A stretch of DNA of 64,000 bases, from positions 32,632-96,631 of the forward strand of contig CAMJMR010000001.1 in assembly GCA_946407095.1 (NCBI GenBank), in the 5' to 3' direction. The translations under genes were made by a program, and so were the position numbers. This stretch comes from an uncultured Selenomonadales bacterium (lineage in GTDB: Bacteria > Bacillota > Negativicutes > Selenomonadales > Selenomonadaceae). The notes under the pieces were generated by a model. The model ran no database searches, had not been told where the DNA came from, and saw only the letters and a program-made list of their open reading frames with translations. Below are positions 10,781 to 64,000 of the stretch, piece after piece; within the stretch, counting starts at the first letter, position 1; each line of letters opens with the position of its first letter.

Positions 10781-11078
10781 AGCGTGACGTTGCAAGGGAC
10801 AGAGGCGCGCATGGACGCGCGCCGCCCGCGTCTTGTTGCGTGATGCAACAACAGCGGGCACGAGCGGCTTCGGCTTGGCTCAACGTTTCGCCCACGACGT
10901 CTGAACGCCCCCGCGAGGGGTCTTTTCTTTTGCAACTTTTCTTTGGACAAGCAAAGAAAAGTTGATCCTAAACATAAAAGTTATTGAACCGTTGAATCGA
11001 AGGGAACCGCCGCCGCCACGACAAGCCCAAGCTGTCTTTGCGCCCTTTTGCTTAGCCAACGAAAGGACGCCCGCCCCT
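10781..11078 (-). repeat. Family-2 structured element, long form (copy a); candidate ncRNA
   Basis: The reverse complement aligns with 33251-33546: 5' hairpin CCTTTCGTTGGCTAAGCAAAAGGG, P1 AACTTTTCTTTG...CAAAGAAAAGTT, an ATCAC-loop hairpin, and a terminal GC hairpin with GTCCAT loop. Confidence 0.75.
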
Positions 11079-15040: not shown

Positions 15041-15424
15041 TTATTTCTTCTTGGCTTTAGCTTTCTTCGCGCCGTATTTGGAACGCGCTTGCTTGCGGTC
15101 TTGCACGCCGGCGGTATCGAGTGAGCCGCGAATGATATGGTAGCGAACACCCGGCAAGTCCTTGACGCGTCCGCCGCGAATTAAAACAACGCTATGTTCC
15201 TGCAGATTATGCCCGATACCGGGAATATAAGCAGTGACTTCAATAGCGTTGGTCAAGCGGACACGGGCAACTTTGCGAAGTGCCGAATTCGGTTTCTTGG
15301 GCGTCGTCGTGTAAACGCGAGTGCACACGCCGCGTTTCTGCGGGCACTCCTTCAGAGCCGGAGCGGTTGATTTTTCCTCCAACATCTGACGACCTTTTCT
15401 GACCAGTTGATTAATGGTTGGCAT
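15041..15424 (-). CDS. rpsL: 30S ribosomal protein S12
   Basis: [13 protein letters not shown]... starts at ATG 15424, preceded by GGAAGGAGGTGGG. The track ORF start at 15442 is an upstream in-frame ATG. Confidence 0.95.
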
Positions 15425-22301: not shown

Positions 22302-22330
22302 GGAGGTGACGGCAACTAGGAATGAAAAAA

Positions 22331-22361
22331 CTAGTTCCTAGTTCCCAGTTCCTAGTTCCTC
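22331..22361. repeat. CTAG-heptamer tandem array upstream of the ABC ATPase gene
   Basis: ACTAGTTCCTAGTTCCCAGTTCCTAGTTCCT. An inverted single unit AACTAGGAA lies at 22315. Confidence 0.7.
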
Positions 22362-31383: not shown

Positions 31384-31435
31384 GGGGGATTTGGCATGAA
31401 GAATTTTTTGACGACCTTAAGCGCGGCGATTGAGT

Positions 31436-31528
31436 GGGCTAGCAATGCGCAGCGTTGCGTTTTGACGCGGCGAATACGTTTGAATCATGAGCGACACGGC
31501 GCGCTATCCGGATGCAACGTCACGTTGC
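31436..31528 (+). repeat. Family-1 element, copy 2 (subtype a)
   Basis: GGGCTAGCAATGCGCAGCGTTGCGTTTTGACGCGGCGAATACGTTTGAATCATGAGCGACACGGCGCGCTATCCGGATGCAACGTCACGTTGC. Confidence 0.85.
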
Positions 31529-31609
31529 CGAACTTAGTCAAGCGTCAGACGGCTTAAGGGGGATTTGGCATGAAGAATTTTTTGACGACCTTAAGCGCGG
31601 CGATTGAGT

Positions 31610-31702
31610 GGGCTAGCAATGCGCAGCGTTGCGTTTTGACGCGGCGAATACGTTTGAATCATGAGCGACACGGCGCGCTATCCGGATGCAACGTCACGTT
31701 GC
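31610..31702 (+). repeat. Family-1 element, copy 3 (identical to copy 2)
   Basis: Identical sequence, 174 nt downstream of copy 2. Confidence 0.85.
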
Positions 31703-31744
31703 CGAACTTAGTCAAGCGTCAGACGGCTTAAGGAGTGATTCGTT

Positions 31745-33250: not shown

Positions 33251-33546
33251 CGGGCGGACTCCTTTCGTTTGCTAAGCAAAAGGGCGCAAAGACAGCTCGG
33301 CTTGACATTCGCGGCGTGTCTCTTCGATTCAACGTTTGAATGATTTTTATGTTTAGGATCTACTTTCTTTCACTGGCGAAAGAAAGTAGCAAAGAAAGCC
33401 ACCACTGCGCGTGGGGCGGATACCGACCACCGCCGCAACGTTCGCGTCCCAGTCAGCCACTCGTGCCGCTGTCGACGCATCACGCGTCGAAGTCGCGGCG
33501 GCCGCCCGTCCATGGGCGGCCTCGTCCTCTGCAACGTATCACTGCA
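33251..33546 (+). repeat. Family-2 structured element, long form (copy b); candidate ncRNA
   Basis: Starts directly after the tolC stop. The segment 33361-33501 is identical to 53139-53279. Confidence 0.8.
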
Positions 33547-34671: not shown

Positions 34672-37600
34672 TCACTTTCCTGCGAGAATTTTGTAGCCGT
34701 TAATGCGTTCTTCGGCATCGTGCTGTGTCTTTTCAAAGAGAGCCTGCGCGGCGTCGGGGAAGTTGCGCTTCAAGGACGAATAACGGACTTCGCCCATAAG
34801 GAATTCTTGGAACTTGCTGAAGTCGGGCTCCTTGCTGTCGAGCGTGAAAGGATTCTTGCCCGCCGCTGCGAGTTGAGGATTGAAACGCCAATTAGCCCAG
34901 TAGCCGCACTGAACGGCGAGCTTGCCCTCCAGTTGGCTTGAACCCATGCCCTTGCGTATGCCGTGATTGATGCAGGGCGCGTAGGCGATAATCAACGACG
35001 GACCGGGATAAGCCTCCGCCTCCGTGACGGCTTTGAGCAGCTGATTCTGGTCTGCGCCCATCGAGACTTGCGCAACGTAGACGTAGCCGTAACTCATCGC
35101 CATCTTGCCTAGGTCTTTCTTCTTGGTGCGCTTGCCTGTCGCCGCGAATTGCGCGATAGCCGCAGCCGGAGTCGCCTTCGACGCTTGACCGCCCGTGTTC
35201 GAGTAGACTTCCGTATCGAAGACAAAGACGTTGACATCTTCGCCGCTTGCCAAAACGTGGTCAAGCCCGCCGTAGCCGATATCGTAAGCCCAGCCGTCGC
35301 CGCCGAGTATCCATTGCGAGCGCTTCACGAAAAAGTCGCGGTTGTCGAAGATTTTATTCAGCAGTTCGTCCGAGCCCTTTTGAGCGGCAAGCAACGCCGT
35401 CAACTTATCTGCGCGGTCGCGAGTGCCTTCGCTGACGTCGCGGTTGTCCTTCCAGTCGGTCAAAGCCGCTACCAGTTCCTTGTTCCTTGTTCCTTGTTCC
35501 TGAATTGCTTGTTCGACTTCGTTGGCCAACATTTCACGAATCGCCTTGACGCCGAGGAACATGCCCAAGCCGTATTCGGCGTTGTCTTCAAAGAGCGAAT
35601 TGCCCCAAGCGGGACCGTGACCCTTGAAATTTTTGGTGTAGGGCATTGCCGGTGCCGACGCGCCCCAAATCGACGAGCAACCCGTAGCGTTGGCAATCAT
35701 CATGCGGTCGCCGTAAAGTTGCGTCAAAAGTTTTGCGTAAGGCGTTTCGCCGCAACCCGCGCAGGCTCCGCTGAACTCAAACAGCGGCTTTTCAAACTGA
35801 CTGCCGATAACGGTCGTCTTCTTCGTCGGATTCTCTTTTTGAGCGAGCTTGACGCCGTAATCGAAAATTTTCTGCCGAGCCATCGCCTTGTCGTCGAACT
35901 TGACCATTTCCAACGCCTGCTTCGGACAAACCTGCGCGCAGTTGCCGCAGCCGAGGCAGTCGTAGGTTGAGACGGCGATTGTCACGTCATACTTGCCGCG
36001 AGAAATTTTCGACGGAATAGCCTCCATGCCTTCGGGCGCGGCCTTGAGTTCGTCTTCGGTCGTGAGAATCGGGCGAATAGCGGCATGCGGGCAAACGAAC
36101 GAACATTGATTACAGCCGATGCATTTTGACTTGTCCCACGCGGGAACTTTGATAGCCGTGCCGCGTTTTTCGTAGGCCGTGCCGCCGACGGGGAATGTGC
36201 CGTCCGCCAAGTCGACAAACTTGCTGACAGCCAACTCGTCGCCTTCCTGCCGATTCATGACGTTTTGGATGTCGGTGACGAATTCGGGCGGGTCGACTTG
36301 TTTCAGGTTGCGATTCATGCTTGTGTCGTCGACGTCCCACGTGCTTGTGTCGACTTTGTGCAGAGCCTCAATGCCCTTGTCAATCGCGCCGCAGTTCATG
36401 TCGACGACGTTTTGCCCCTTCGAGCCGTAAGATTTTTCGACGGCGTCCTTGAGGTACTTAACAGCCTCGTCAATCGGAATGATGTTCGCCAGCTTGAAGA
36501 AGGCGGCTTGCATGACCATGTTGAAGCGTCCGCCCAAGCCGAGTTCGCCCGCGATTTTCACGGCGTTGACGGTGTAGACTTGAATGTCGTTGTCCTTGAT
36601 GTAGCGTTTCATTGCGGGCTTGAGCTTATGACCGAGCTTTTCGTCGCTCCAGTCGGTGTTGAGCAGGAAGGTGCCGCCCTTTTTCAAGCCCGCGATAAGA
36701 TTGTAATGATGAACGTAGCTTTTCTGCGAGCAGCTTACGAAGTCGGGCTTGGTGATAAGATACGGCGAGGTTATGGGCAACTTGCCGAAGCGCAGGTGGC
36801 TCATGGTGATGCCGCCGGATTTTTTCGAGTCGTAGGCGAAGTAAGCTTGCGCGTAAAGGTCGGTGTTGTCGCCGATGATTTTAATCGCGGACTTGTTCGC
36901 GCCGACGGTGCCGTCAGAGCCGAGACCCCAGAACTTGCAAGCGGTCGTGCCTTCGGGCGTCAAGTCAACGTCGTGATGACCCGTCACGAGGGATTTGTTG
37001 GACACGTCGTCGTTAATGCCGATAGTGAAGCCGTCAAGCGGCGAATCCTTTTTGAGTTCGTCGAAGACCGCAAGCAGTTGGTCGGGCGTGGTGTCCTTGC
37101 CGCCCAAGCCGAAACGTCCGCCGACGATAACGGGCTTGTCGGCCACGTCGTAGAAAGCGGCTTTAACGTCAAGATACAGGGGCTCGCCGACGGAGCCGCT
37201 TTCCTTCGTGCGGTCGAGGACGGCGATTTTCTTTACGGTTTTGGGAATGGCGTTGAGGAAGTGCTTGACGCTGAACGGGCGGTAGAGGTGGACGCTCACG
37301 ACGCCGACTTTTTCGCCCTGCGCGTTGAGGTAAGCCGCCGCCTCGTTTGCGGTTTGACAGCCCGAACCGATAGCGATAATGACGCGGTCGGCATCGGGCG
37401 CGCCGCTGTAGTCGAAGATGTGATGTTCGCGCCCCGTGACCTTTGCCACGTCAGTCATAATCTCTTCGACGATATCGGGCAGGCGGTCGTAGTTGTTGTT
37501 GACGGTTTCGCGAATCTGGAAGTAGACGTCGGGATTGGTGGCGGTGCCGCGCATGACGGGGTGGTCGGGATTGAGGGCGTTGCGGCGGAAGGCGTTGACC

Positions 37601-44287: not shown

Positions 44288-44461
44288 TAAATCTACTTTC
44301 TTTGTGCGGACAAAGAAAGTAGCAAAGAAAACCGCCGCTACGCGCGGGGCGAAGGGTCGTTACCCGCGCCGCCCGATATTTTCAGCGTGCTTGCGCCGAC
44401 GGTATTTGCGTCACGCAAATGCGTCGGCGACGGCCGCCCATCCTTGGGCGGCCTCTTTTTT
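44288..44461 (+). repeat. Family-2 structured element, short form (copy c), ending in a canonical terminator; candidate ncRNA
   Basis: P1 TACTTTCTTTGTGCGGACAAAGAAAGTA, a TCAC-loop hairpin ATTTGCGTCACGCAAAT, and a terminal hairpin GGCCGCCCATCCTTGGGCGGCC followed by TCTTTTTT. Confidence 0.75.
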
Positions 44462-44482
44462 AGATGATTGTCTTAAAAATTT

Positions 44483-45685
44483 TTGACGGTGATATTCATG
44501 ACGGACTTTGACGAGCAACTTAGGAAATTGATTCACATGGAGCGGCACAACTTCGCAGGCTCTTCGTCGCGCGCCATAGTGGAGCTGGTGAATTTGCTTT
44601 TCGACTTCGCGATAAAAATGCGGGCGTCCGACTTGCACCTGGAGCCGTATGAAAAATCGTTGCGCGTGCGCTATCGAATCGACGGGCAATTACAGGAACT
44701 TCATCAGCCGTTACCGCTAAGCTTGGCGGATGCGCTGACTTCCCGAATAAAAATTTTGGCGCGCATGGATACGACTGCCGCCTTCCTGCCGCTGGACGGA
44801 GCAATTCGTTTCGGGAACGTCGAAATGCGCGTGGCAAGTATGCCGTCGTTCGGCGCGGAGAGTTTGACGATACGCCTGCTTGATTCGTCGTTGGAATTGC
44901 ACCGCCTCAAAGATTTGGGCTTCACGGCGGAGAATGAAAAAATTTTCCGGCAAATGACGAACACGGCGGCGGGCATGATAATTTTGACGGGGCCGATGAA
45001 TTCGGGCAAGTCGACGACGCTTTACGCCGCGTTGCGCGAACTCAACCAGCCGTCGCGTTCGATAATGACGCTTGAAGATCCGATTGAACAGCACGTCGAG
45101 GGAATAAGTCAAGTGCAAGTCAACGAGAAAACGGGTTTGACGTTCGCGGCGGGCTTGCGAGCGATGTTGCGCATGGACTGCAACGTTTTAATGGTCGGGG
45201 AGGCTCGTGACGCGGAGACTTCCAAAATAGCGGTGCGCGCCGCGCTGACGGGTCATTTGATTTTCACGACGTTGCACGCCAACGATTCATGCAGTGCGGT
45301 CTTCCGCATGTTGGAAATGGGCGTTGAACCGTATTTGTTGGCGGCGACGCTTAACGGCGTGGTGGCACAGCGGTTGGTTAGGCGGCTTTGTCCGAAGTGC
45401 AAGAAAATCTGCGCGGACGGGACGTTTGAGGCGGTCGGTTGCTCGGAATGTCGTGGCACGGGCTACAGCGGACGAATCGCCTTGCATGAGATTTTGCGCG
45501 TCGATAAGGATTTGCGCTCGCTGATTCTTACCAGCCGCGACTTGGATGAGATAAGAGCCTTTGCCCTTGACGCGGGCTTGAAGACTTTGGCTGACGACGC
45601 TTTTGAAAAAGTCCGCGCAGGTGTCACGACACTTGACGAAATCAGACGCGTGTTGGGCATGGATTTTATCAAAGGAGCTGATTAA
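44483..45685 (+). CDS. GspE/PilB-family secretion ATPase (lacks the N-terminal N1E domain)
   Basis: 400 aa ORF with Walker A GPMNSGKST, Asp/His boxes and a tetracysteine CPKC...CSEC motif. The start codon is uncertain (TTG 44483 or ATG 44498). Confidence 0.85.
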   Translation: MTVIFMTDFDEQLRKLIHMERHNFAGSSSRAIVELVNLLFDFAIKMRASDLHLEPYEKSLRVRYRIDGQLQELHQPLPLSLADALTSRIKILARMDTTAAFLPLDGAIRFGNVEMRVASMPSFGAESLTIRLLDSSLELHRLKDLGFTAENEKIFRQMTNTAAGMIILTGPMNSGKSTTLYAALRELNQPSRSIMTLEDPIEQHVEGISQVQVNEKTGLTFAAGLRAMLRMDCNVLMVGEARDAETSKIAVRAALTGHLIFTTLHANDSCSAVFRMLEMGVEPYLLAATLNGVVAQRLVRRLCPKCKKICADGTFEAVGCSECRGTGYSGRIALHEILRVDKDLRSLILTSRDLDEIRAFALDAGLKTLADDAFEKVRAGVTTLDEIRRVLGMDFIKGAD

Positions 45686-45687: not shown

Positions 45688-46371
45688 TTGCTTGACGAAA
45701 AAAAAGTTGCGTTCATAACGTGCGTGAACAGCGATTGGTGGTACAGCGAGTGCCGCCTTTACCTGGAGCACTTGACGATACCCGACGGCATGACGGCCGA
45801 GTTTATCGACGTGCGCGACGCAAAATCCATGACGGCGGGCTACAACCGCGCAATGAAAAATTCCGACGCCAAGTACAAAATTTATCTGCACCAAGACACT
45901 TTCGTCGTCAACAAGAATCTTATCGCCGACTTGCTGAAAATTTTTCGCGACGAGACAATCGGTGTCGTGGGAGTGATTGGTTGCATGAACTTGCCCGCGA
46001 CGGGCGTTTGGTGGGACGGCTTGAGGACTTACGGGCGCGTGCTTCATGCTTGCGAGCCCGAAAGTGTCGTCGATTCGCATTGCGACGAACCCGAAGGCGA
46101 TTATCAGGAAGTCGAATCGGTTGACGGTTTATTTTTGGCGACGCAGTACGATTTGCCGTGGCGCGAAGATTTGTTCGACGGTTGGCATCTTTACGACACA
46201 TCGCTCTGCAAGGAAATGAGCCGAGCCGGTTATCGGGTTGTCGTGCCGAATCAGTCGGCGGATTTTTGGTGCATACACTGCCCGAAGGAAAAACCGCTTG
46301 ACCCGCGCTATCGCCGCTACCAAAAAATTTTCCTTGCCGAATACGGCGACGAACTTAATCCCGAAGTTTAA
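45688..46371 (+). CDS. Glycosyltransferase-like protein (GT2-like fold)
   Basis: 227 aa ORF ...VAFITCVNSDWWYSECRLYLEHL...YNRAMKNSDAKYKIYLHQD...VDGLFLATQ... Confidence 0.7.
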   Translation: MLDEKKVAFITCVNSDWWYSECRLYLEHLTIPDGMTAEFIDVRDAKSMTAGYNRAMKNSDAKYKIYLHQDTFVVNKNLIADLLKIFRDETIGVVGVIGCMNLPATGVWWDGLRTYGRVLHACEPESVVDSHCDEPEGDYQEVESVDGLFLATQYDLPWREDLFDGWHLYDTSLCKEMSRAGYRVVVPNQSADFWCIHCPKEKPLDPRYRRYQKIFLAEYGDELNPEV

Positions 46372-46379
46372 AAGTTGGT

Positions 46380-46473: not shown

Positions 46474-46568
46474 CGCCGCTACCAAAAAATTTTCCTTGCC
46501 GAATACGGCGACGAACTCAATCCGGAGGTGTAAAGTGGAAGACATCAAACCGAGCTTGAGCCGCTTTA

Positions 46569-46663
46569 AAAGCGGCGAAACATATAACGCGTTTAAGCGT
46601 CCGGTAACTTCAGCCAGTCGCCGCGCATAAAATTTATCAACGAACTTTATTGGGAGGTTTGAC
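46569..46663 (-). repeat. Family-1 element, copy 5 (subtype b, diverged or truncated)
   Basis: The plus strand reads CCGCTTTAAAAGCGGCGAAACA...GTCGCCGCGCATAAAAT.... It aligns with 59846 and 63517. Confidence 0.6.
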
Positions 46664-53085: not shown

Positions 53086-53324
53086 GCCCTTTCGTTTGCT
53101 AAGCAAAAGGGCTCAAAGACAGCTTTTGATTTTAAATCTACTTTCTTTCACTGGCGAAAGAAAGTAGCAAAGAAAGCCACCACTGCGCGTGGGGCGGATA
53201 CCGACCACCGCCGCAACGTTCGCGTCCCAGTCAGCCACTCGTGCCGCTGTCGACGCATCACGCGTCGAAGTCGCGGCGGGCGCGCGTCCATGCGCGCCCT
53301 CATTCTCTGCAACTCATTCGTTGC
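53086..53324 (+). repeat. Family-2 structured element, intermediate form (copy d); candidate ncRNA
   Basis: Carries the 5' hairpin CCCTTTCGTTTGCTAAGCAAAAGGG. The core is identical to copy b. The terminal hairpin GGGCGCGCGTCCATGCGCGCCC differs from copy b by compensatory changes. Confidence 0.8.
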
Positions 53325-53338
53325 TTTATCAACAGTCC

Positions 53339-55264
53339 CTAACTATCACGTTTCTTGCGGAGCTGAAGGAAGAGAATTGCCGCGAAAATCGCAACGCCCG
53401 CAATATCCGTGACGAGCCCCGGCTTAATCATCAAGAGGCCGCCCGCGCCCAAAAGCACGCGTTGCCACTTCAACAGCGGAGCGGCAAGATAGCCGATAAG
53501 CGACGCGCTCAACGCGACCATGCCGACAATCGCCGTCAAAAGCGACAATATCAGCCCGCCCGTCACGCCGTTGACGAGCAACAGTTCAGGGCTGAGCACG
53601 AACATGTAAGGGATTATGAACGCCGCGATTGCCAGCTTTGACGCGTTGATTCCCGTCCTTAACGCATTGCCACCCGATATGCCCGACCCCGCGTAGGCCG
53701 CCAAGGCTACGGGCGGAGTGACGTCCGCGATTATCCCGAAGTAGAAAACGAACATGTGAGCCGCCAAAATCGGCACGCCCATTTGAATCAGCGCGGGCGC
53801 GGCTATCGTCGACGTGATGACGTAATTTGCTGTGGTAGGCACGCCCATGCCCAAAAGTATCGCCGTTATCATCGTGAGGAACATTGCGGGCAACGCCATG
53901 CCGCCCGACAAATCCAAAAGTGCGGACGCAAGCTTGAGCCCGACGCCCGTCTTCGTCACGACGCCGATTATAATGCCGGCCGCCGCGCAGGCTACCAAGA
54001 CGCCCAAAACATTCCGTGCGCCCGTCTCCAATCCTTTGACGATTGCGGCGGGCGTCATTCTTGTTTCCTTGCGCAAGCTGCTGACGACGATTGACAAGAT
54101 TATCGCGACCAAGGCCGCGCGCATGGGCGTGTAGCCGCTGACGAGCAGATAGACGATAACAATCAGCGGTATCGCCAAATGCCCGCGCGTCCTGAACAGT
54201 TCGCCGAGCTTCGGCAGTTCTGCGCGGGGCAAGCCCTTTAAGTCGTTGCGCTTAGCCTCGAAGTGCACGCCGAGCCATACGCCGATAAAATACAACGCCG
54301 CAGGGATGACGGCCGCCTTGACGATTTCGACGTAGGGCACGCCGACGAATTCCGCCATAAGGAAGGCCGCCGCGCCCATAACCGGAGGCATCAGCTGACC
54401 GCCCGTAGACGCCGCCGCTTCGACCGCGCCCGCGAAGTCTTTGTGATAGCCGAGCTTTTTCATCATCGGTATGGTTAGCGAGCCCGTCCCGACGACATTG
54501 GCGACCGAAGAGCCGCTGACCGTCCCCATCAGCCCGCTTGACAACACTGCCACTTTAGCGGGGCCGCCGCTTGCCCAACCCGCGATTGAATTCGCAACGT
54601 CTATGAAAAATTTTCCGAGACCCGTCCCCTCCAAGTACGCGCCGAACAGGATAAACAGGAATATGAACGTCGACGAGACGCCCAGCGGTATGCCGAAAAT
54701 GCCTTCCGTCGTGAAGTAGACATGGCTGACGAAATGATCTATCGTCAAGCCTCTGTGCGCCAAAATCCCCGGCATGTACGGTCCCGCGAAGGCGTAACTT
54801 ATGAAAAACAAAACGACGCAGACCATCGGGATTCCGACCACGCGTCGCGCCGCCTCAATTACTAAAATGATTCCAATCGCGCCAATTATTACGTCCGTCG
54901 ACGTTGGCAAGGCCGCCCGCAAAATTAATTCGCGATAGTTCAGGACGATATAGGCGGGCATTGCTGCGCCCAAGACTGCAAGCACTCCGTCAAGCGGGTG
55001 AAGTTTGTCGCGCCGCCAAGATTTTCGCGTCGGGTAAAGCAGAAACGATAAGCATAAGCCGAAGCCCAAATGAATCGCCCGCTGGATTTGCGCGTCGAGC
55101 AGTCCGAAGCTTGCCGTATAGAGTTGGAAGACCGAAAAGCTTATCGCCAAGGCGGAAACTACTTTTGCCATAGCTCCCGCATATTCCATGGTGTTCGATT
55201 CGGCGTCGTACTTTTTCAAGACCTCCTCGGCAGACATTTCTTTTTTTTCGGGCACAGGTTGCAC
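53339..55264 (-). CDS. TRAP transporter fused permease subunit (TAXI-type)
   Basis: 641 aa polytopic membrane ORF with the typical fused DctQM-like organisation. Confidence 0.88.
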   Translation of the reverse strand: MQPVPEKKEMSAEEVLKKYDAESNTMEYAGAMAKVVSALAISFSVFQLYTASFGLLDAQIQRAIHLGFGLCLSFLLYPTRKSWRRDKLHPLDGVLAVLGAAMPAYIVLNYRELILRAALPTSTDVIIGAIGIILVIEAARRVVGIPMVCVVLFFISYAFAGPYMPGILAHRGLTIDHFVSHVYFTTEGIFGIPLGVSSTFIFLFILFGAYLEGTGLGKFFIDVANSIAGWASGGPAKVAVLSSGLMGTVSGSSVANVVGTGSLTIPMMKKLGYHKDFAGAVEAAASTGGQLMPPVMGAAAFLMAEFVGVPYVEIVKAAVIPAALYFIGVWLGVHFEAKRNDLKGLPRAELPKLGELFRTRGHLAIPLIVIVYLLVSGYTPMRAALVAIILSIVVSSLRKETRMTPAAIVKGLETGARNVLGVLVACAAAGIIIGVVTKTGVGLKLASALLDLSGGMALPAMFLTMITAILLGMGVPTTANYVITSTIAAPALIQMGVPILAAHMFVFYFGIIADVTPPVALAAYAGSGISGGNALRTGINASKLAIAAFIIPYMFVLSPELLLVNGVTGGLILSLLTAIVGMVALSASLIGYLAAPLLKWQRVLLGAGGLLMIKPGLVTDIAGVAIFAAILFLQLRKKRDS

Positions 55265-55966: not shown

Positions 55967-56156
55967 CTCAATCGCTCCTTTGATTTTGGTCGACGGAAAA
56001 TTTCTACAGGCGGCGGCGTTTTTCCTGCAGAGGGCTTGCGGTTGAAATTGCGCTGGCATTGAACTATAATCAATCGGATTATCTAGGGGCAGTTGGTAAC
56101 GTCAAACAGTGACGGTTCTTTTTTCGCCTGACGAAAGTTGTCGCGCGCTCGCCGGT

Positions 56157-56250
56157 CGCTTTAAAAGCGACGGAACAGCAAGGGCGCGGCGATTCCCTTA
56201 AGTCATCGACGAGTTTCAACGCGCTATCTGGGTCAAGCTTCAAGCTTGCG
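56157..56250 (+). repeat. Family-1-related element, copy 6 (mosaic: subtype-b hairpin at the 5' end, subtype-a-like hairpin at the 3' end)
   Basis: GTCGCTTTAAAAGCGACGGAACAGCAAGGGCGCGGCGA...GCGCTATCTGGGTCAAGCTTCAAGCTTGC. The 3' hairpin covaries with GCAACGTCACGTTGC. Confidence 0.6.
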
Positions 56251-56778: not shown

Positions 56779-58944
56779 ATGTTTAGAAAATTTTTTAAGG
56801 CATTGAGCGGGAAGAAAGAATCGCGCCGACAGCGACAGGAAACCGACATTGAGCGCGAAATTTCCGCGATTTACGCCATCCTCGTCGAAGTCATGGGCTC
56901 CGACAGATTGGTTTTGCAGGCGGGCAAGATGGACGCCCTCCGCTACATGCGCTCGAATGACCCCGCCGAACGCGTCCTTGCCCTGCGCAGAATCCTTGAG
57001 GAAAATCCTACGCTCGCGCCGCCGCCCAAGCCCAACGAACTTAAAGAACAAGTCATGGCTCTTTCGGAGCTGATAGCCGACATCATGGCGCGTCGACAGG
57101 TTGAAGACAAAATTGAACGCAAGATTAACGAGAAGCTTGAAAAGGAACATCAAGACTACGTCAAGGATATTCGTATGCAAGTTTTGCGCGAAGAGAACAA
57201 TTCCGAATCGCCGCACGACCAAAAGAAGCGCGAAGACCTTCAAGCCCTCGAAGACATTCACTTGACGCAATCGGTTATGGAATTGCTTAGGCCGAAGACG
57301 CTTGAAGAAATCGTCGGGCAGGGACGCGCCGTCAAGTCGTTGCGCTCAAAGCTTGCGTCGCCCTACCCGCAACATCTGATTTTGTACGGCCCGCCGGGCG
57401 TCGGCAAAACCACGGCGGCGCGGCTGATATTGGAGGCGGTGCGCGGCACAGAACTAAGTCCCTTCGGCGAAAATGCGCCCTTCGTGGAAACGGACGGCAC
57501 GACCCTCCGCTGGGACCCGCGTGACGTGACGAATCCGCTTTTGGGCTCGGTGCACGATCCGATTTATCAGGGCGCGCAACGTCAGCTTGCCGACAGCGGC
57601 GTCCCCGAACCGAAACCCGGTCTTGTCACGGACGCGCACGGCGGCATCCTGTTCATCGACGAAATCGGCGAAATGGATATCATGTTGCAGAACAAGCTGC
57701 TGAAAGTCTTGGAGGACAAGCGAGTTTTCTTCGAGTCGAGCTACTACGACCCTGCCGACGAAAAAGTTCCGCCTTACGTCAAAATGCTGTTCGAGAACGG
57801 TGCGCCCGCCGACTTCGTGCTTATCGGTGCCACGACCCGCGAACCTTCCGCGCTCAATCCCGCATTGCGTTCGCGTTGTGCAGAAATTTACTTCGAGCCG
57901 TTGACGCCCGCTCATATCGTCGAAATCGTCAACAACGCCGCGCAGAAGCTCAACGTCGAGCTTGAGGACGGGCTTGCCGAAACAATCAGCGAATACACGA
58001 TTGAAGGGCGCAAGGCGATTAACATTCTTGCCGACGCCTACAGCTTGGCTCTTGACCGCGCCGAGGAAAAAGTTTTGCACATCGACCGCCCCGTCAAAAT
58101 CGAAATGCGCGACGTGTACGAAGTGGCGCAAGTTAGCCGGCTTTATCAATACGTCACGCGCAAGGCGTCGAGCAAGGCGGCAGTCGGGCACATCTTCGGG
58201 CTGGGCGTCAGCGGCTTTATCGGCTCCGTCATCGAGATTGAGGCTGTCGTCTTCGCGGCGGAAAAGGGCAAGGGCACGATTCGCTTCAACGAGACGGCGG
58301 GCTCCATGGCGAAGGATTCGGTCTTCAATGCGGCGAGCGTCCTGCGCGGCGTGACGGGCAAAGACATTCACGACTTCGACGTGCACATAAACGTTATCGG
58401 CGGCGGCAACATCGACGGACCGAGCGCGGGCACGGCGATTTTGGCGGCGTTGGTCAGTGCAGTCACGGGCAAGCGCATTCGGCAAGACGTGGCTGTTACG
58501 GGCGAAATTTCCTTGCAGGGCAAAGTTCGGCCTGTCGGCGGCGTCTTCGAGAAGGCTTACGGCGCAAAGCAGGCGGGCATTAAGACGTTGGTTATCCCGA
58601 AGGAAAACGCCAAAGACATTCCGAAAGGACACTTGGGCTTGAAGATATTCGCAGTCGAGACGGCGGAGGAGGCTTTCAAAAAAATTTTCGCGGACGCGGT
58701 TGAATTCGTCGGCAAGCAAACGGTTTCGTTGGACAAAGACGAACAAACAGCTTTGACACCCACGCCATCGTCGAAAGACGAACAGATAAAAAAAAGCAAC
58801 GTGACGTTGCACCCAGATAGCGCGCTGAAAGATTGCGCCGACATTGATTCGACCCCCGCGTCGTCGTCGAAAGACGAACAGATAAAAAAAATTTCCTCAA
58901 CGACTGTGACGTCGGAGGAATTGGAAATGCTTACGAGCGATTGA
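56779..58944 (+). CDS. Lon-family ATP-dependent protease (LonC/LonB-like) with a repeat-derived C-terminal tail
   Basis: 721 aa ORF with Walker A GPPGVGKTT and a Lon protease Ser motif DGPSAGTAILAALVS. The tail after about residue 650 contains duplicated SSKDEQIKK and an embedded family-1 fragment. Confidence 0.88.
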   Translation: MFRKFFKALSGKKESRRQRQETDIEREISAIYAILVEVMGSDRLVLQAGKMDALRYMRSNDPAERVLALRRILEENPTLAPPPKPNELKEQVMALSELIADIMARRQVEDKIERKINEKLEKEHQDYVKDIRMQVLREENNSESPHDQKKREDLQALEDIHLTQSVMELLRPKTLEEIVGQGRAVKSLRSKLASPYPQHLILYGPPGVGKTTAARLILEAVRGTELSPFGENAPFVETDGTTLRWDPRDVTNPLLGSVHDPIYQGAQRQLADSGVPEPKPGLVTDAHGGILFIDEIGEMDIMLQNKLLKVLEDKRVFFESSYYDPADEKVPPYVKMLFENGAPADFVLIGATTREPSALNPALRSRCAEIYFEPLTPAHIVEIVNNAAQKLNVELEDGLAETISEYTIEGRKAINILADAYSLALDRAEEKVLHIDRPVKIEMRDVYEVAQVSRLYQYVTRKASSKAAVGHIFGLGVSGFIGSVIEIEAVVFAAEKGKGTIRFNETAGSMAKDSVFNAASVLRGVTGKDIHDFDVHINVIGGGNIDGPSAGTAILAALVSAVTGKRIRQDVAVTGEISLQGKVRPVGGVFEKAYGAKQAGIKTLVIPKENAKDIPKGHLGLKIFAVETAEEAFKKIFADAVEFVGKQTVSLDKDEQTALTPTPSSKDEQIKKSNVTLHPDSALKDCADIDSTPASSSKDEQIKKISSTTVTSEELEMLTSD
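58796..58860 (-). repeat. Family-1 element fragment, copy 7, inside the Lon-like ORF
   Basis: The plus strand reads GCAACGTGACGTTGCACCCAGATAGCGCGC.... It is flanked by 28-bp direct repeats at 58768-58795 and 58864-58891. Confidence 0.75.
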
Positions 58945-59791: not shown

Positions 59792-59840
59792 CCGTTATTC
59801 TCCGATAAATTTTTCTTGCCGACCTTCGACTCAAGCCGCC

Positions 59841-59943
59841 GCCGCCCGCTTTAAAAGCGGGGGAACAGTTAGCGCGTTGCAACTGACGACAAAGGAAACG
59901 TTATCGCCGCGTTCATACGCAACGCCGGCGCATTGCTAGCCCG
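59841..59943 (-). repeat. Family-1 element, copy 8 (subtype b)
   Basis: The plus strand reads GCCGCCCGCTTTAAAAGCGGGGGAACAGTTAGCGCGTTGCAACTGACG...GCCGCGTTCATACGCAACGCCGGCGCATTGCTAGCCC. Confidence 0.8.
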
Positions 59944-59960
59944 ATAAAATGGTTGGATTC

Positions 59961-62450
59961 TCAATTTTTCTTGCCGACCTTCGACTCAAGCCGCCTACGC
60001 AGTTCGTTATGAAAATCTTCCGCGCCCGCCTTGAATTTGACCTCGACGCAGATGACGTAGACCGGAATGCTCCACGCCTGCCGCGCCACTTCGTCCGGAA
60101 TTTTAACGGCGTCCTTTTCCGTCACAACAATCATTTCCGCCGCGAACGACTCCGCCCGCCGCAAGATGTCTTCCATTTCCGCAACCGTGTAGTCGTGGTG
60201 GTCGGGATAGCGCAGGCTCGAAATTATTTCCGCTCCCAAATCGCTTAGCGTCCTCTCGAACGACGCGGGGTTGCCGATAGCCGAAACCGCCATCACCTTC
60301 CGCCCGCGTAAAATCTCGACGCTGACGCCCTCGCCCGCCAAATCGACCGACCAATCGGCAAGCGGTATCAGGCAGCGCGGCTCGTGTATGCTCTCGACAA
60401 TCTGCGCGGCGGCATTGTACTTTTGAACGGTCTCGCGAATCAGCTCGCAAGAACCCTCGCGGGCTTGGTCAACCTTCGTCATGAGGCAAACATCTGCGCG
60501 GCTGATATGGGAAATGGATTCGCGCAACGTGCCGCGCGGCAAAAGGTGCCCGTTCCCGAAGACGGACACCGCGTCAATCAGCAGAATGTCGAAGTCGCGA
60601 ATGATTTGCCAATGTTGAAAGCCGTCGTCAAGAATCACGACCTCCGCGCCGAAATTTTCAATGGCGTATTGCCCCGTGACGGCTCGCCGCGCTCCGATTA
60701 GCACAGGGACATTCGGCAGGTGCTTGGCAAGCATGTAGGCTTCGTCGCCCGCCTCCGTCGCGTCCATTTTGAGCGTCTTGCCGTCGCTTACGATGCCGAC
60801 TTCGCCGTAAAATTTCGCCCGGTAGCCGCGATTGAGAATCACGACGCGATAGCCCATGTCGCGAATTTCCTTCGCCAGCCGTTGAGCCGTAGGCGTTTTG
60901 CCCGTCCCGCCGACCGTTATGTTGCCCAGGCTTATGACGAAACATTTCAGCCGCTCCTTGCCCGAAAAGCCCAAATCGTAGCCGAGTAGCCGCAGATTGA
61001 CCAGCCCTTTGTAGACCAGCGAGGCAAGATACATGACGAAAATCATCAGCGGCGTGAAGGCTCCGCGAACTTCTTCGTCGTGAATCAGCTTGAGGAAATA
61101 CGTTTGAACGTTTTCAATTTTCTCTGTCGTGCGGAGGCGGCGGGCGTTTTCCTTGGCCTCGTATTCGGTGAGCATTTGCCTTAGCAGGACGGCCGACTTG
61201 CGCGACGCGCCGCGATTCTCATGGACAATCTTAATCGTCTCTTCCTCAAGGCGTTGGCGTTCGGCGGGTTCGTCGAAAAGTTTCTTCGCCTGCGCGGCAA
61301 GTTCGTCAGCGTCCTTGACCGTGACGCAAGCGTTGCGATTCTTGAACAGCGCGTGCAAGTCTTTAAAATTTTCCATGTGGTGCCCGACGATAATCGCCTT
61401 GCCGTGCGCCGCCGGCTCAAGGATATTGTGGCCGCCGTGAGAAACCAGACTGCCGCCGACGTAAATCACGTTGCCGACGCTGTAGACTTGACCGAGTTCG
61501 CCGATAGTGTCGAGGATGATTATGTCTTCGCCCTTGGGCGGACGCTTTTGGAGTTCGGTGCGCGTGCCGACGGTGAAGCCTGCCGCCTTGCACAGCGCGA
61601 CGACTTCACGGGTGCGCAAAAGTTCGCGCGGGGCAATGACGAGCCGAGCCTTGGGATGATCTTCGCGAATAGCCTTGAACGCCTTGAGCACGAAATTTTC
61701 TTCGCCGCGATGCGTGCTGCCCGCCAAAAAAATTTCCGTGGCGTCCGTCAAGCCCATGTCCGACAAAATCTTGGCGCGTTGAGCGTCCGTGACATCGGTG
61801 TAGGTTTGGTCGAATTTCGTATTGCCCGTGACGATGACGAGGTCTTCAGGCGCACCGAGCTGCTTGACGTAGCCCGCGTCGACACTTGACGCCATAGCGA
61901 ACAGCTTGACCGTGCCGATCATATCGCGCAGGATTGAGAACATGTACTTGTAACGCTTGACGCTCTTTTCGGAAATGCGCCCGTTGACCATCATGACGGG
62001 CACTTGATGTTCGCGCGCCGCTTTGAGGAAGTTCGGCCACAGCTCCGTTTCGACGTTCAGAAAGACGCGCGGGAAAATTTTTTTGAAGACCGACTCCGAA
62101 ACGAACGGCAAATCCAGCGGGAAGTAGATTATGCTGTCCGCGTCTTTGATGATTCGGTTCGCCATTTCGTAGCCTGAAGTCGTCACGACCGACACGAGGA
62201 TTGGCGATTTGGGGAATTCGCGGCGGAACTCTTTAATCAGCGGGCTTGTGGCGACGATTTCTCCGACCGACGCCGCGTGCACCCATATGCAATTTTTTTT
62301 CGCCACGGGGTCCAGTGCGCCCTTCGGGAAGAAGCCGAAGCTTTGACGGATTCGCTCCACGAAGCCGCGCTCCCGTATCGAACGAATCATGAACACCGGG
62401 ATAATCAGTATCACGACGAGTATCGCCGCCAAGTTGTAAAGTAATTGCAA
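59961..62450 (-). CDS. Bifunctional fusion: Kdo transferase (WaaA/KdtA) plus tetraacyldisaccharide 4'-kinase (LpxK)
   Basis: 829 aa ORF. The N-terminal half has WVHAASVGE and GT30 features. The C-terminal half has VISLGNITVGGTGKTP (LpxK P-loop). Confidence 0.88.
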   Translation of the reverse strand: MQLLYNLAAILVVILIIPVFMIRSIRERGFVERIRQSFGFFPKGALDPVAKKNCIWVHAASVGEIVATSPLIKEFRREFPKSPILVSVVTTSGYEMANRIIKDADSIIYFPLDLPFVSESVFKKIFPRVFLNVETELWPNFLKAAREHQVPVMMVNGRISEKSVKRYKYMFSILRDMIGTVKLFAMASSVDAGYVKQLGAPEDLVIVTGNTKFDQTYTDVTDAQRAKILSDMGLTDATEIFLAGSTHRGEENFVLKAFKAIREDHPKARLVIAPRELLRTREVVALCKAAGFTVGTRTELQKRPPKGEDIIILDTIGELGQVYSVGNVIYVGGSLVSHGGHNILEPAAHGKAIIVGHHMENFKDLHALFKNRNACVTVKDADELAAQAKKLFDEPAERQRLEEETIKIVHENRGASRKSAVLLRQMLTEYEAKENARRLRTTEKIENVQTYFLKLIHDEEVRGAFTPLMIFVMYLASLVYKGLVNLRLLGYDLGFSGKERLKCFVISLGNITVGGTGKTPTAQRLAKEIRDMGYRVVILNRGYRAKFYGEVGIVSDGKTLKMDATEAGDEAYMLAKHLPNVPVLIGARRAVTGQYAIENFGAEVVILDDGFQHWQIIRDFDILLIDAVSVFGNGHLLPRGTLRESISHISRADVCLMTKVDQAREGSCELIRETVQKYNAAAQIVESIHEPRCLIPLADWSVDLAGEGVSVEILRGRKVMAVSAIGNPASFERTLSDLGAEIISSLRYPDHHDYTVAEMEDILRRAESFAAEMIVVTEKDAVKIPDEVARQAWSIPVYVICVEVKFKAGAEDFHNELRRRLESKVGKKN

Positions 62451-63324: not shown

Positions 63325-63515
63325 GAGCCCGCACCTCCCACAAAAAATTTTGTCGATTATAACACAGCGCACAAAAAAAATCTGCCGCTTGTAAGTGACA
63401 GATTAAATTTTTTAAAATTACGAAGTGCTCTTTAGCATTTATCAAAAACGATTCGTAACTTTAGGAGAATGGAAGATGAACTTATCGGCTGAAAACATTT
63501 CGGTGACGCTCGGCG

Positions 63516-63597
63516 CCCGCTTTAAAAGCGGGGGAACAGCGGACGCGCCTCAACGTTTCACTGCTTAAAGTTGGTCGCCCGCGTCCATACGCATTGC
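63516..63597 (-). repeat. Family-1 element, copy 9 (subtype b)
   Basis: The plus strand reads CCCGCTTTAAAAGCGGGGGAACAGCGGACGCGCC...GTCGCCCGCGTCCATACGCATTGC. It is flanked by direct repeats of about 65 bp. Confidence 0.8.
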
Positions 63598-63623
63598 TTC
63601 GTAACTTTAGGAGGGATTGAAAG

Positions 63624-64000
63624 ATGAACTTATCGGCTGAAAATATTTCGGTGACGCTCGGCGGCAAAGAGATTTTGCGCGATTTGAATTACGAATTCCC
63701 TTCGGGCAAGCGCACGGCGATAATCGGCGCGAACGGCGCGGGCAAGTCCACTTTGCTGAAGGTGCTTTGCCTGCTCAACGAAAATTTTTCGGGACGCGTG
63801 ACGCTCGACGGGCAAGACATTCGCGCACTCGGCAGAAAAAATTTGGCAAAGGTAATGGCAATCTTGCCGCAAGAACGCGACGCGCCGCAAGATACGACCG
63901 TCAAGCAGTTGGTTTCATTTGGACGCTTTCCGCACAGAAAATTTTTCAGCGGCACCTCGAAGGAGGACGACGCGGCTGTTCAAAACGCCTTGGCACTCAC
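63624..64000 (+). CDS. ABC transporter ATP-binding protein (iron-siderophore/cobalamin FecE/FepC-like), 5' part
   Basis: MNLSAENISVTLGGKEILRDLNYEFPSGKRTAIIGANGAGKSTLLK.... Runs off the window end. Confidence 0.85.
   Translation, partial: MNLSAENISVTLGGKEILRDLNYEFPSGKRTAIIGANGAGKSTLLKVLCLLNENFSGRVTLDGQDIRALGRKNLAKVMAILPQERDAPQDTTVKQLVSFGRFPHRKFFSGTSKEDDAAVQNALAL

What the first reader, a model, noticed from the sequence alone, without database searches (positions are those of the whole stretch)
53086..53324. Family 2: multi-copy 175-300 nt element with covarying hairpins, a candidate novel structured RNA
Four copies are present: 10781-11078 (minus strand), 33251-33546, 44288-44461 and 53086-53324.

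Seen directly:
- P1 hairpin: TACTTTCTTTC..GAAAGAAAGTA, versus AACTTTTCTTTG..CAAAGAAAAGTT, versus TACTTTCTTTG..CAAAGAAAGTA.
- A conserved linker CAAAGAAA follows P1.
- P2 hairpin: CCAC-TGCGC-GTGG, versus CCGC-TACGC-GCGG, versus CCCC-TCGC-GGGG.
- A possible long-range pairing between CCGCCGC and GCGGCGG.
- A hairpin with a conserved (A)TCAC loop whose stem covaries: TCGACGC/GCGTCGA, versus TTGTTGC/GCAACAA, versus ATTTGCG/GCAAAT.
- A terminal GC hairpin: GGCCGCCCGTCCATGGGCGGCC, versus GGGCGCGCGTCCATGCGCGCCC, versus GGCCGCCCATCCTTGGGCGGCC. Only copy c is followed by a U-run.
- Copies b and d are 100% identical over about 141 nt but differ by compensatory changes in the terminal hairpin.
- The long forms add a 5' hairpin CCTTTCGTTTGCTAAGCAAAAGGG and a conserved A/T-rich segment TTCAACGNTTNAATNANTTTTATGTTTAGGATC.
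- All copies are intergenic, directly after convergent or co-directional gene ends.

Inference. Candidate identities are an sRNA family, an ORF-less mobile element, or a stand-alone guide-RNA-like scaffold (omega-RNA, reRNA or bridge-RNA type) acting with a protein encoded elsewhere. I do not recognise it as any named RNA family.
Basis: partly seen in the sequence, partly recalled or inferred. Interest (0 to 1): 0.8.

Follow-up and report, generated by a model that had tools for sequence, protein, structure and literature searches.

The report
Mobile structured repeat with triplex signature
A non-coding element of about 165 bases, present in many copies in rumen Quinella-like bacteria, is a small mobile repeat whose sequence is kept able to fold into hairpins, a pseudoknot and an apparent three-stranded helix, and it matches no described RNA or transposon family.

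Summary
There are exactly four copies in the window, and at least 150 distinct copies in Quinella/Selenomonadaceae rumen genomes and metagenomes.

Two features were missed. The P1 loop pairs with the 4-5 nt after the A-rich linker, forming a pseudoknot. The linker is also a strict mirror image of the P1 purine arm (70 of 70 distinct 5' domains), which is the signature of a three-stranded helix.

The element is not in Rfam and has no linked protein gene. It shows no orientation bias towards neighbouring genes and has no conserved promoter. Stem mismatches show no G·U versus A·C asymmetry, so nothing shows that it acts as RNA rather than as single-stranded DNA, and the functional strand is undecided.

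It is mobile. Two clean filled/empty site pairs exist between related genomes. Target duplications vary from 9 to 33 bp and the element ends are ragged. Copies at orthologous sites have exchanged modules.

Best reading: a new family of ORF-less, structure-dependent mobile repeats, moved by an unknown factor acting in trans. It is not a stand-alone sRNA gene and not a guide-RNA scaffold. The insertion mechanism is unresolved and looks unusual.

The parts
53086..53324 (+). Copy d, whole element: 5' hairpin, shortened leader, 162-nt core, 3' tail.
53087..53111 (+). Copy d: optional 5' hairpin H0 (CCCTTTCGTTTGCTAAGCAAAAGGG). It is shared with a and b, and similar hairpins precede long forms in other MAGs.
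53138..53167 (+). Copy d: P1 hairpin. Pyrimidine arm CTACTTTCTTTC (53138-53149), loop ACTGGC (53150-53155), purine arm GAAAGAAAGTAG (53156-53167).
53168..53175 (+). Copy d: linker CAAAGAAA, a mirror repeat of the P1 purine arm and the candidate third strand of a triple helix.
53176..53179 (+). Copy d: 3' strand of the pseudoknot (GCCA), pairing with TGGC in the P1 loop (53152-53155).
53180..53196 (+). Copy d: P2 hairpin CCAC-TGCGC-GTGG followed by the conserved GGCG.
53243..53277 (+). Copy d: P4 hairpin. Outer stem GCCGC/GCGGC, inner stem TCGACGC/GCGTCGA, loop ATCAC.
53278..53299 (+). Copy d: P5 terminal hairpin GGGCGCGCG-TCCA-TGCGCGCCC, with the invariant TCC in the loop.
53300..53324 (+). 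Copy d: 3' tail (TCATTCTCTGCAACTCATTCGTTGC). The tail is variable between copies.
33251..33546 (+). Copy b, long form: H0 33260-33284, P1 33360-33389, linker 33390-33397, pseudoknot strand 33398-33401, P2 33402-33414, P4 33465-33499, P5 33500-33521, tail to 33546.
44288..44461 (+). Copy c, without H0: P1 44293-44322, linker 44323-44331, pseudoknot strand CCGC 44332-44335, P5 44432-44453, then a T-run.
10781..11078 (-). Copy a, long form, between tuf and the S10 operon: P1 10964-10933, linker 10932-10923, P5 10823-10804.

Best explanation
Family 2 is a non-autonomous mobile repeat without an ORF, confined mainly to uncultured Quinella-like Selenomonadaceae of the rumen.

Anatomy. The unit is a core of 160-170 nt (short form 104-122 nt) with ragged 5' and 3' extensions.

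Shown:
- It inserts into intergenic DNA in either orientation and duplicates 9-33 bp of the target.
- Copies later exchange modules by recombination.
- Its sequence is constrained so that one strand folds into the following: a 12-15 bp homopyrimidine/homopurine hairpin (P1); a pseudoknot between the P1 loop and the bases after the linker; a linker that mirrors the purine arm base for base, giving a three-stranded register; and hairpins P2-P5 with conserved loops (RUCC-N-U and AUCAC, or their complements).

Inferred:
- The fold, in single-stranded DNA or in RNA, is what an unidentified factor encoded elsewhere recognises in order to copy or insert the element. Only lineages that keep the fold spread, which produces the covariation.
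That is the canonical major-groove U·A-U / C+·G-C triple helix of an H-type pseudoknot.

Not decided: which strand and which nucleic acid is the active form.
For: Family and distribution. A further 68 hairpin-bearing copies in metagenomes. Core length is tightly 157-170 nt.

Hairpin structure. P1, P4 and P5 keep pairing through many two-sided changes. At least 10 arm variants of P2 exist.

Pseudoknot. Mean pairing is 3.99 bp, against 2.86 ± 0.095 for shuffled partners (maximum 3.27 in 1000 shuffles), with at least 12 covarying combinations.

Third strand. The first A-run of the linker equals the first T-run of the 5' arm in 70 of 70 distinct domains. It shows no association with the run expected if the linker were a direct copy of the 3' arm. 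Ten loop/pseudoknot sub-families contain several P1 length classes, and the linker always matches. The same rule holds in unrelated taxa: where P1 has no C-G pair the linker has no G (L048, L217).

Mobility.
- Clean filled/empty pairs: L059/L077, and L060/L082 with an 11-12 bp duplication.
- Flanking direct repeats of 16, 17, 19, 20 and 33 bp, against a null maximum of 13 in 440 comparisons.
- Copies are absent from the window at sites filled in relatives.
- Assemblies break inside the tuf-rpsJ copy.
- Copies at orthologous sites differ in P1 class, pseudoknot, P4 and P5 while their flanks are 87-89% identical.
- b, d and a form a mosaic.

No partner or regulatory logic.
- 141 neighbouring proteins show no recurrent family and are housekeeping types.
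- Orientation relative to flanking genes: 24 antisense, 19 sense, 8 convergent, 3 divergent.
- Sigma-70-like promoters in 4 of 73 copies (top strand) and 8 of 73 (bottom strand).
Against: No mobilising enzyme was found, and there are no terminal inverted repeats or fixed element ends. Only about 10% of copies show a detectable duplication. Target duplications of variable length with ragged ends fit no characterised prokaryotic transposition pathway, so the mechanism is a gap in the explanation.

Uniform core length and conserved loop sequences could equally reflect a host function. If an RNA intermediate were used, G·U pairs should outnumber A·C, and they do not (14 versus 18 of 1884 pairs). 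Expression was not tested. The triple helix is inferred from sequence register alone.
Confidence: 0.6

Rival explanations
1. A family of functional small RNAs (trans-acting regulators or protein sponges) made from many loci. On the strand opposite to the reader's, the P5 loop reads UCA-NGGA-UGA, which resembles the CsrA/RsmE hairpin consensus A/UCANGGANGU/A (from my own knowledge). That RNA would also end in a U·A-U triple helix that could protect its 3' end.
For: The fold is elaborate, uniform in length and conserved across species. The loop sequences are nearly invariant (TCC in P5). Folding energies are below those of shuffles on both strands (z from -2.6 to -6.0).
Against: There is no conserved promoter on either strand, and only about 10 of 78 copies have a T-run after P5. 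There is no G·U/A·C asymmetry. In Quinella 2Q5 copies P5 instead carries the AUCAC loop, so GGA is not always present. Copies are not syntenic between species.
Confidence: 0.17
2. A REP/BIME-like element domesticated by the host that acts in cis on neighbouring transcripts or DNA. Possible roles are mRNA 3'-end stabiliser, terminator or insulator, or a binding site for nucleoid proteins or gyrase through cruciform or H-DNA.
For: It is strictly intergenic, with median distances of 80 nt to the upstream gene and 41 nt to the downstream gene. It is more often between convergent gene ends than between divergent starts (8 versus 3). Copy c doubles as a terminator-like hairpin. Perfect palindromes without wobble pairs are typical of DNA-level repeats.
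Against: With no orientation bias (24 versus 19), a single-strand mRNA role is unlikely. The pseudoknot and conserved loops are not needed for a terminator or stabiliser. Presence is not conserved at orthologous sites.
Confidence: 0.12
3. A retroposon in the style of eukaryotic SINEs. An RNA copy is reverse-transcribed at a nick in the target (target-primed), which would give variable target duplications and variable 5' extents.
For: Target duplications vary from 9 to 33 bp. The 5' extensions vary from 7 to 100 nt and the 3' extensions from 10 to 41 nt. Three of seven well-defined 3' junctions abut a C-A-run.
Against: No reverse transcriptase was seen near any copy. There is no excess of G·U. 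No 5'-truncated copies lacking P1 were found. The 3' end is also ragged. The A5T5 motif at junctions is palindromic and common throughout these genomes.
Confidence: 0.08
4. A stand-alone guide-RNA scaffold (an omega-RNA of TnpB or IscB, or an IS110 bridge RNA) working with a nuclease or recombinase encoded elsewhere.
For: It is multi-copy, about 165 nt, contains a pseudoknot, and has variable sequence beyond the last hairpin.
Against: There is no Rfam hit even at a permissive threshold. No TnpB, IscB, IS110 or Y1 transposase is among the 141 neighbours, and no copy overlaps the end of an ORF. The target duplications are not those of IS200/IS605 or IS110.
Confidence: 0.03

Closest known systems
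Small interspersed structured repeats of bacteria (REP/BIME of enterobacteria, BOX of pneumococcus, bcr1 of the Bacillus cereus group)
   Same: Dozens to hundreds of intergenic copies of 100-300 nt without an ORF. Modular long and short forms, stable hairpins kept by compensatory change, either orientation, and a mobilising factor that is unknown or acts in trans.
   Different: No sequence similarity. None of those families is described with a pseudoknot plus a mirror-repeat third strand (my own knowledge). REP has the GTAG-headed palindrome and RAYT partners, and bcr1 has a fixed 5-bp duplication. Here the duplications vary from 9 to 33 bp.
MITEs derived from DDE-transposase insertion sequences
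   Same: Non-autonomous, short, intergenic, flanked by target duplications, and polymorphic between related genomes.
   Different: There is no excess of terminal inverted repeats (flank test: inverted 7.68 versus null 7.42). The ends are not fixed, and duplication length is variable instead of family-specific.
'Insertion with long and variable target duplication' described for restriction-modification genes (Furuta, Abe and Kobayashi 2010, PMC2853133)
   Same: Insertions flanked by long direct duplications of unique target sequence, of variable length, with no recognisable mobility gene. The duplications often include gene ends.
   Different: Those inserts are gene cassettes of kilobase size and are single events. 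Here the inserts are families of small structured non-coding repeats, including two other families in the same window.
H-type pseudoknots with a major-groove U·A-U triple helix (telomerase RNA pseudoknot, SAM-II riboswitch) and ENE/MALAT1-type triple helices
   Same: On the bottom strand the order is pseudoknot strand, U-rich strand, pyrimidine arm, loop, purine arm. The U/C strand is parallel to the purine arm and matches it base for base (U over A-U, C over G-C).
   Different: This is a resemblance in architecture only and has not been shown physically. There is no ligand-binding or telomerase context. The stem is 12-15 bp long and the element is multi-copy. It may be DNA and not RNA.
IS200/IS605 family ends and their ORF-less derivatives (PATEs); omega-RNA
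   Same: Mobility depends on folded single-stranded hairpins. Perfect DNA palindromes without wobble pairs fit this. ORF-less derivatives exist.
   Different: The IS200/IS605 family makes no target duplication and inserts next to a fixed tetra- or pentanucleotide (my own knowledge). No Y1 transposase or TnpB was found near any copy, and there is no Rfam hit.

Membership tests
Any Rfam 15 RNA family (including HEARO/omega-RNA, riboswitches, ribozymes) | Covariance-model score at or above the family gathering threshold | tested here: not met
   0 hits in the whole window. Only chance-level hits at E up to 10 over copy b. 0 hits in four out-group loci.
TnpB/IscB omega-RNA or IS110 bridge RNA | Encoded at the end of, or next to, a TnpB, IscB or IS110 gene in at least some copies | tested here: not met
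   141 flanking proteins: the largest cluster has 4 members, all ABC-transporter parts. No transposase or nuclease domains were found.
MITE (DDE-type) | Terminal inverted repeats and a target duplication of fixed length | tested here: not met
   Inverted flank similarity equals the null. Duplications are 9-12, 11, 16, 17, 19, 20 and 33 bp. The distance from duplication to core varies from 7 to 100 nt (5' side) and from 10 to 41 nt (3' side).
MITE / non-autonomous mobile repeat (broad sense) | Presence/absence polymorphism at orthologous sites with duplication of the target | tested here: met
   L059 filled versus L077 empty. L060 filled versus L082 empty, with the duplication CTACAGGTGAC.
REP / RAYT system | A 20-40 nt imperfect palindrome headed by unpaired GT[AG]G, with a RAYT (Y1 transposase) gene flanked by REPs | tested here: not met
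   GTAG/CTAC is base-paired inside P1 and covaries with GTTG/CAAC (39 UA: 21 AU). No Y1 transposase is among the neighbours. Whole genomes were not searched.
IS200/IS605-derived PATE | No target duplication, and insertion 3' of a fixed short target sequence | tested here: not met
   Target duplications are present and the junction sequences differ between copies.
Cis-regulatory leader / riboswitch | Constant orientation upstream of a recurrent gene family, with an expression platform | tested here: not met
   Orientation is unbiased (24 antisense, 19 sense). Neighbouring genes are unrelated to one another.
Stand-alone sRNA gene family | Own promoter and terminator at a conserved distance; a discrete transcript | tested here: inconclusive
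   Sigma-70-like promoters in 4 of 73 copies (top strand) and 8 of 73 (bottom strand). A T-run follows P5 in about 10 of 78 copies. Only a sigma-70 consensus was scanned, and no expression data were available.
Structured RNA (as opposed to DNA) in general | G·U pairs tolerated on the transcribed strand, so G·U far outnumbers A·C in stems | tested here: not met
   G·T 14 versus A·C 18 among 1884 stem pairs in 152 windows. In P1 there were 0 of either among 1003 pairs.
H-type pseudoknot with triple helix | Loop-to-downstream pairing that covaries, and a third strand whose sequence tracks the stem base pairs | tested here: met
   The pseudoknot exceeds every one of 1000 partner shuffles. Linker run equals arm run in 70 of 70 domains, with coordinated indels in 10 sub-families. 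Physical formation is not testable with these tools.
SINE-like retroposon | Reverse-transcriptase partner, defined 3' end with tail, 5' truncations | tested here: inconclusive
   Variable duplications and variable 5' extents fit. However, no 5'-truncated cores were found, the 3' end is ragged, and no reverse transcriptase was seen in about 1 Mb of flanking DNA by clustering. Not all ORFs were annotated.

The most novel reading that the evidence does not exclude
The element, together with the two other repeat families in the same window, may spread by a pathway not yet described in prokaryotes. In this reading, a folded single strand whose recognition or priming module is an intramolecular triple-helix pseudoknot is inserted at staggered breaks or by template switching. 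That would produce long target duplications of variable length that keep the neighbouring genes intact. The same Y-arm / R-arm / mirror-strand module recurs in Campylobacterota, Bacteroidota and Clostridia contigs, so it would be a widespread structural device and not a curiosity of one genus.
Probability: 0.3. Interest if true: 0.85.

Novelty: new variant of a known kind. Interest (0 to 1): 0.62.

Why it matters
Dispersed structured repeats are common in bacteria, yet how most of them move and why they keep their folds is unknown. This family offers unusually clear handles:
- A strict three-strand sequence rule that can be tested by mutation and probing.
- Clean filled and empty sites.
- Variable long target duplications that exclude the usual transposases.
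- Sister families in the same genome with even longer duplications.

If the triple helix is real, it would be one of very few natural intramolecular triplexes with comparative support outside riboswitches and eukaryotic or viral RNAs. It would also be the first tied to a mobile element in bacteria.

In practical terms, these repeats break Quinella assemblies. Their density in this window is about one per 16 kb.

Tried and rejected
- Rfam at gathering and permissive thresholds found nothing.
- blastn against plasmids and phages found no match.
- The viral contig scan gave two chance hits without a hairpin.
- tRNA/tmRNA scan found none.
- Using wobble pairs to assign the strand gave no asymmetry. 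The first P5 count was biased by my hairpin finder and was redone.
- A first crude ORF caller mis-called strands. It was replaced by a codon-usage model validated on tuf, fusA and others.
- Looking for an own promoter found only a minority sub-family with TTGACT-17-TAACTT.
- Exact-protein look-ups to obtain sister genomes gave either nothing or short contigs that end inside the repeat.
- I considered a circularly permuted or tandem intermediate, because some 3' tails resemble 5' extensions of other copies. No permuted copies were found, so I dropped it.
- I considered CsrA-type GGA hairpins on the bottom strand. This is weakened because P4, and in Quinella 2Q5 copies P5, carries AUCAC instead.
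- I did not build a covariance model. MAFFT columns could not represent the pseudoknot, so it was tested with anchored parsing and partner shuffles instead.
- Literature searches for Quinella repeats or triplex-bearing bacterial repeats found nothing relevant.

Full report

Yes. A pattern built from P1, the linker and GGCG matches exactly these four sites, against zero in 100 shuffles. A profile built from 61 copies finds the same four and nothing else significant in the 64 kb.

Flanking genes, from Pfam:
- Copy a lies between tuf and the S10 ribosomal operon, on the same strand as those genes.
- Copy b follows an outer-membrane efflux gene and faces an isocitrate/isopropylmalate dehydrogenase gene.
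- Copy c lies between a shikimate dehydrogenase gene and a type II/IV secretion ATPase gene.
- Copy d lies between a DctM-type transporter gene and a small FlhB-like gene, antisense to both.

Rfam has no family for the element, either at gathering scores or at E up to 10.

**2. Relatives elsewhere**

The pattern found more than 93 stretches in one-genome-per-species GTDB contigs. Nearly all are uncultured Quinella, Selenomonadaceae or Selenomonadales MAGs from the rumen of sheep, goat, deer and cattle. So the window very probably comes from a Quinella-like organism.

The metagenome scan added 68 further hairpin-bearing copies. Viral contigs, plasmids and phages hold none.

From the first base of P1 to the last base of the terminal hairpin, the core is 157-170 nt in most copies. 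A short form of 104-122 nt lacks the middle part. Conservation extends about 45 nt upstream, through a T-rich leader, and about 12 nt downstream.

**3. Anatomy and covariation**

RNAalifold on 61 copies recovers P1, the inner stem of P4 and P5, with many sequences changed on both sides of a pair. For example, the second pair of P1 is U-A in 39 copies and A-U in 21. P4 pairs show four or five pair types each, and the innermost P5 pair is U-A, C-G or A-U. Some apparent covariation inside P1 is a shift caused by indels and not by substitution. P2 exists in at least ten arm variants.

*A pseudoknot.* The 3' part of the P1 loop is complementary to the 4-5 nt that follow the linker: ACCGAG/CTCG, CGTGCC/GGCAC, AGCGAA/TTCGC, GCAG/CTGC, CTCACC/GGGTG, CCAA/GTTG and others. 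Mean pairing is 3.99 bp, against 2.86 ± 0.095 when partners are shuffled among copies. None of 1000 shuffles exceeded 3.27.

*A mirror-image linker.* The linker C-A(n)-G-A(m) is a mirror image of the P1 purine arm, not a copy of it.
- P1 occurs in four length classes (T-runs of 3+3, 3+4, 4+3 and 4+4).
- In 70 of 70 distinct 5' domains the first A-run of the linker equals the first T-run of the 5' arm.
- There is no association with the run expected for a direct repeat of the 3' arm.
- Ten loop/pseudoknot sub-families contain two to four P1 classes, each with the matching linker. The three-way coordinated indels therefore arose repeatedly.
- A protein that reads double-stranded DNA gains nothing from a mirror repeat, and a Watson-Crick alternative helix would favour the opposite arrangement. 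A mirror repeat of a homopurine tract next to its own hairpin is what a three-stranded helix requires.

**4. Which strand, and RNA or DNA?**

That implies A·A-U and G·G-C triples, or a minor-groove path for loop 3 of an H-type pseudoknot.

On the opposite strand the same bases read U(m)-C-U(n), parallel to the purine arm A(m)-G-A(n). There they form loop 1 of an H-type pseudoknot, which runs through the deep groove of stem 2. That is the canonical U·A-U / C+·G-C arrangement known from telomerase RNA, SAM-II and MALAT1. To my knowledge, purine-motif triplexes have not been found with RNA strands.

I could not confirm this by other means:
- Isolated stem mismatches show no asymmetry. G·T occurs 14 times and A·C 18 times among 1884 pairs in 152 copies, and neither occurs among 1003 P1 pairs. 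Ordinary structured RNAs carry many G·U pairs on the transcribed strand. Their absence fits a constraint on DNA palindromes or on both strands.
- A sigma-70-like promoter lies within 100 nt in 4 of 73 copies on the top strand and 8 of 73 on the bottom strand (window copies).
- Only about ten copies have a T-run after P5.
- Folding energies are modestly below shuffles on both strands.

**5. Context**

I called genes with a codon-usage model that recovers tuf, fusA and the other known genes of the window. With those calls, copies sit:
- between co-directional genes in antisense orientation, 24 times;
- between co-directional genes in sense orientation, 19 times;
- between convergent genes, 8 times;
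- between divergent genes, 3 times.

The 141 nearest proteins form almost only singletons. The two clusters of four are ABC-transporter ATPases and permeases, and the other proteins tested are kinases, FtsZ, hydrolases and similar. There is therefore no linked gene and no regulatory logic. Nothing suggests TnpB, IscB, IS110 or RAYT.

**6. Mobility**

*Insertion polymorphism.* Flanking genes of several copies have orthologues in other species at 70-92% identity, but the element is usually not shared. Two pairs are clean.
- In L059 the element lies between a gene start and a conserved spacer, where L077 has an uninterrupted site. The insert is 28 nt of leader, a 168-nt core and 23 nt of tail, bracketed by an imperfect duplication of 9-10 bp.
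- In L060 (Quinella 2Q5) the element sits between two overlapping-operon genes, where L082 reads ...CTACAGGTAACGACATG.... The 11-12 bp CTACAGGTGAC is duplicated, so the upstream stop codon and the downstream ribosome-binding site both survive.

*Target duplications.* Other copies carry flanking direct repeats of 16 (perfect), 17 (perfect), 19, 20 and 33 bp. Flanks paired at random never exceed 13 in 440 trials.

*Ragged ends.* The distance from duplication to core varies from 7 to 100 nt on the 5' side and from 10 to 41 nt on the 3' side. The ends are therefore not fixed. Even so, the core is always whole, and no 5'-truncated or permuted copies were found.

*Module exchange.* Copies at orthologous sites with the same duplication (L009 and L065) differ in P1 class, pseudoknot, P4 and P5, while their flanks are 87-89% identical. 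In the window, d combines the 5' part of b with the P5 allele of a. Modules are therefore exchanged between copies. Counts of 'compensatory changes' thus count sequences and not independent events, although the diversity of variants that preserve the structure is real.

*Assembly breaks.* Short contigs of an ENA assembly end inside the tuf-rpsJ copy, as expected for a repeat.

**7. Explanation**

The best-supported reading is a non-autonomous mobile repeat whose folded single strand is the substrate of an unidentified factor acting in trans.
- Shown: insertion, target duplication, module exchange, and the pairing and three-strand sequence rules.
- Inferred: that the fold is what the machinery recognises, and that the triple helix forms physically.
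- Open: the nucleic acid, the strand and the enzyme.

Long target duplications of variable length, without any mobility gene, have a published precedent. It is the 'insertion with long target duplication' of restriction-modification genes (PMC2853133), whose mechanism is also unknown. Target-primed reverse transcription or template-switch insertion would both give such products, but I have no direct evidence for either.

The rivals are listed with their tests: a functional sRNA or sponge family, a REP-like cis element, a retroposon, and a guide-RNA scaffold.

**8. Comparison with known families, and novelty**

The element works like REP, BOX, bcr1 or MITE-type repeats but fails the defining tests of each. 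It has no inverted termini, no fixed duplication, no REP head and no RAYT. It also fails the tests for IS200/IS605 derivatives and for omega-RNA or bridge-RNA families.

Its 5' module resembles triplex pseudoknots in architecture only. The module also occurs outside Selenomonadaceae and obeys the same rule there:
- two Halarcobacter copies, one with an all-T/all-A stem and an all-A linker;
- Saprospiraceae and Oscillospiraceae copies with pseudoknots;
- several metagenome families.

I rate the element a new variant of a known kind, namely small interspersed structured repeats. It has two unusual properties that deserve experiments.

Noticed in passing
window 46555-46598, 56150-56193, 59840-59883, 63511-63554: A second small repeat family with the hairpin CCGCTTTAAAAGCGGG followed by GGAACAG. 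The copies at 59846-59962 and 63516-63614 are bracketed by long direct duplications of the target: 59808-59845 with 59963-60000 (38 nt), and 63467-63515 with 63615-63663 (49 nt or more). The latter includes the ribosome-binding site, ATG and first 12 codons of an ABC ATPase gene. The same family occupies, in L072, the site that holds a family-2 copy in L018, and there it is flanked by a repeat of about 35 bp.
   Followed up: partly
It is present as a 174-nt tandem duplication at 31357-31704. Elsewhere it is bracketed by direct duplications of 61 nt (46312-46372 with 46474-46534) and 44 nt (58752-58795 with 58848-58891). The 3' tails of family-2 copies a, b and d carry a similar TGCAACGT-CAC motif.
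   Followed up: partly
window 12402-12432, 15011-15055, 22330-22360, 35471-35501: Runs of the heptamer TAGTTCC (CCTAGTTCCTAGTTCCT). Similar heptamer runs sit beside or inside family-2 copies in other MAGs (L085, L143, L111, L027, L092).
   Followed up: no
many intergenic sites, e.g. window 10762-10775, 44476-44487; loci L055, L024, L041, L072: The palindromic motif A5T5 (AAAAATTTTT) is very frequent in the intergenic DNA of these genomes. It lies at or inside several target duplications of family-2 insertions. It could be a preferred target or a promoter-upstream element.
   Followed up: partly
L048 5357-5413 and 5958-6014 (Halarcobacter); L066/L160 (Saprospiraceae); L074 (Oscillospiraceae); L125/L184, L137, L157, L212/L163/L188/L159/L205, L215, L217 (metagenomes): The P1 hairpin plus mirror-image A-rich linker (CTAC-Y-run ... 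R-run-GTAG-C-mirror run) occurs in unrelated taxa attached to different downstream sequences. Some copies have the pseudoknot and some have a GNRA-like loop instead. In all of them the linker follows the same mirror rule. None matches Rfam.
   Followed up: partly
L080 981-1170 (Ignavibacteriales MAG): A tandem array of hairpin units of about 27-34 nt (AACCTACTTTTCTTG-NNN-CAAGAA...) that ends in a full P1-plus-linker unit. It may be an unrelated array of short repeats, for example an antitoxin RNA array.
   Followed up: no
window 53339-53341 and 53320-53345: The stop codon of the DctM-type transporter gene (minus strand) lies inside a sequence (TTTATCAACAGTCCCTAA) that resembles the motif TTTACCRACAGTCC found downstream of family-2 copies in L073, L085, L092 and L084. 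Those loci have no DctM gene, so part of the gene's 3' end may be repeat-derived.
   Followed up: partly
window 10737-10765 (minus strand): A near-consensus promoter (TTGAAA, 17 nt, TATAAT, with an extended TG) for the S10 ribosomal operon lies directly after copy a. The element therefore sits between the tuf stop codon and the rpsJ promoter without disturbing either.
   Followed up: no
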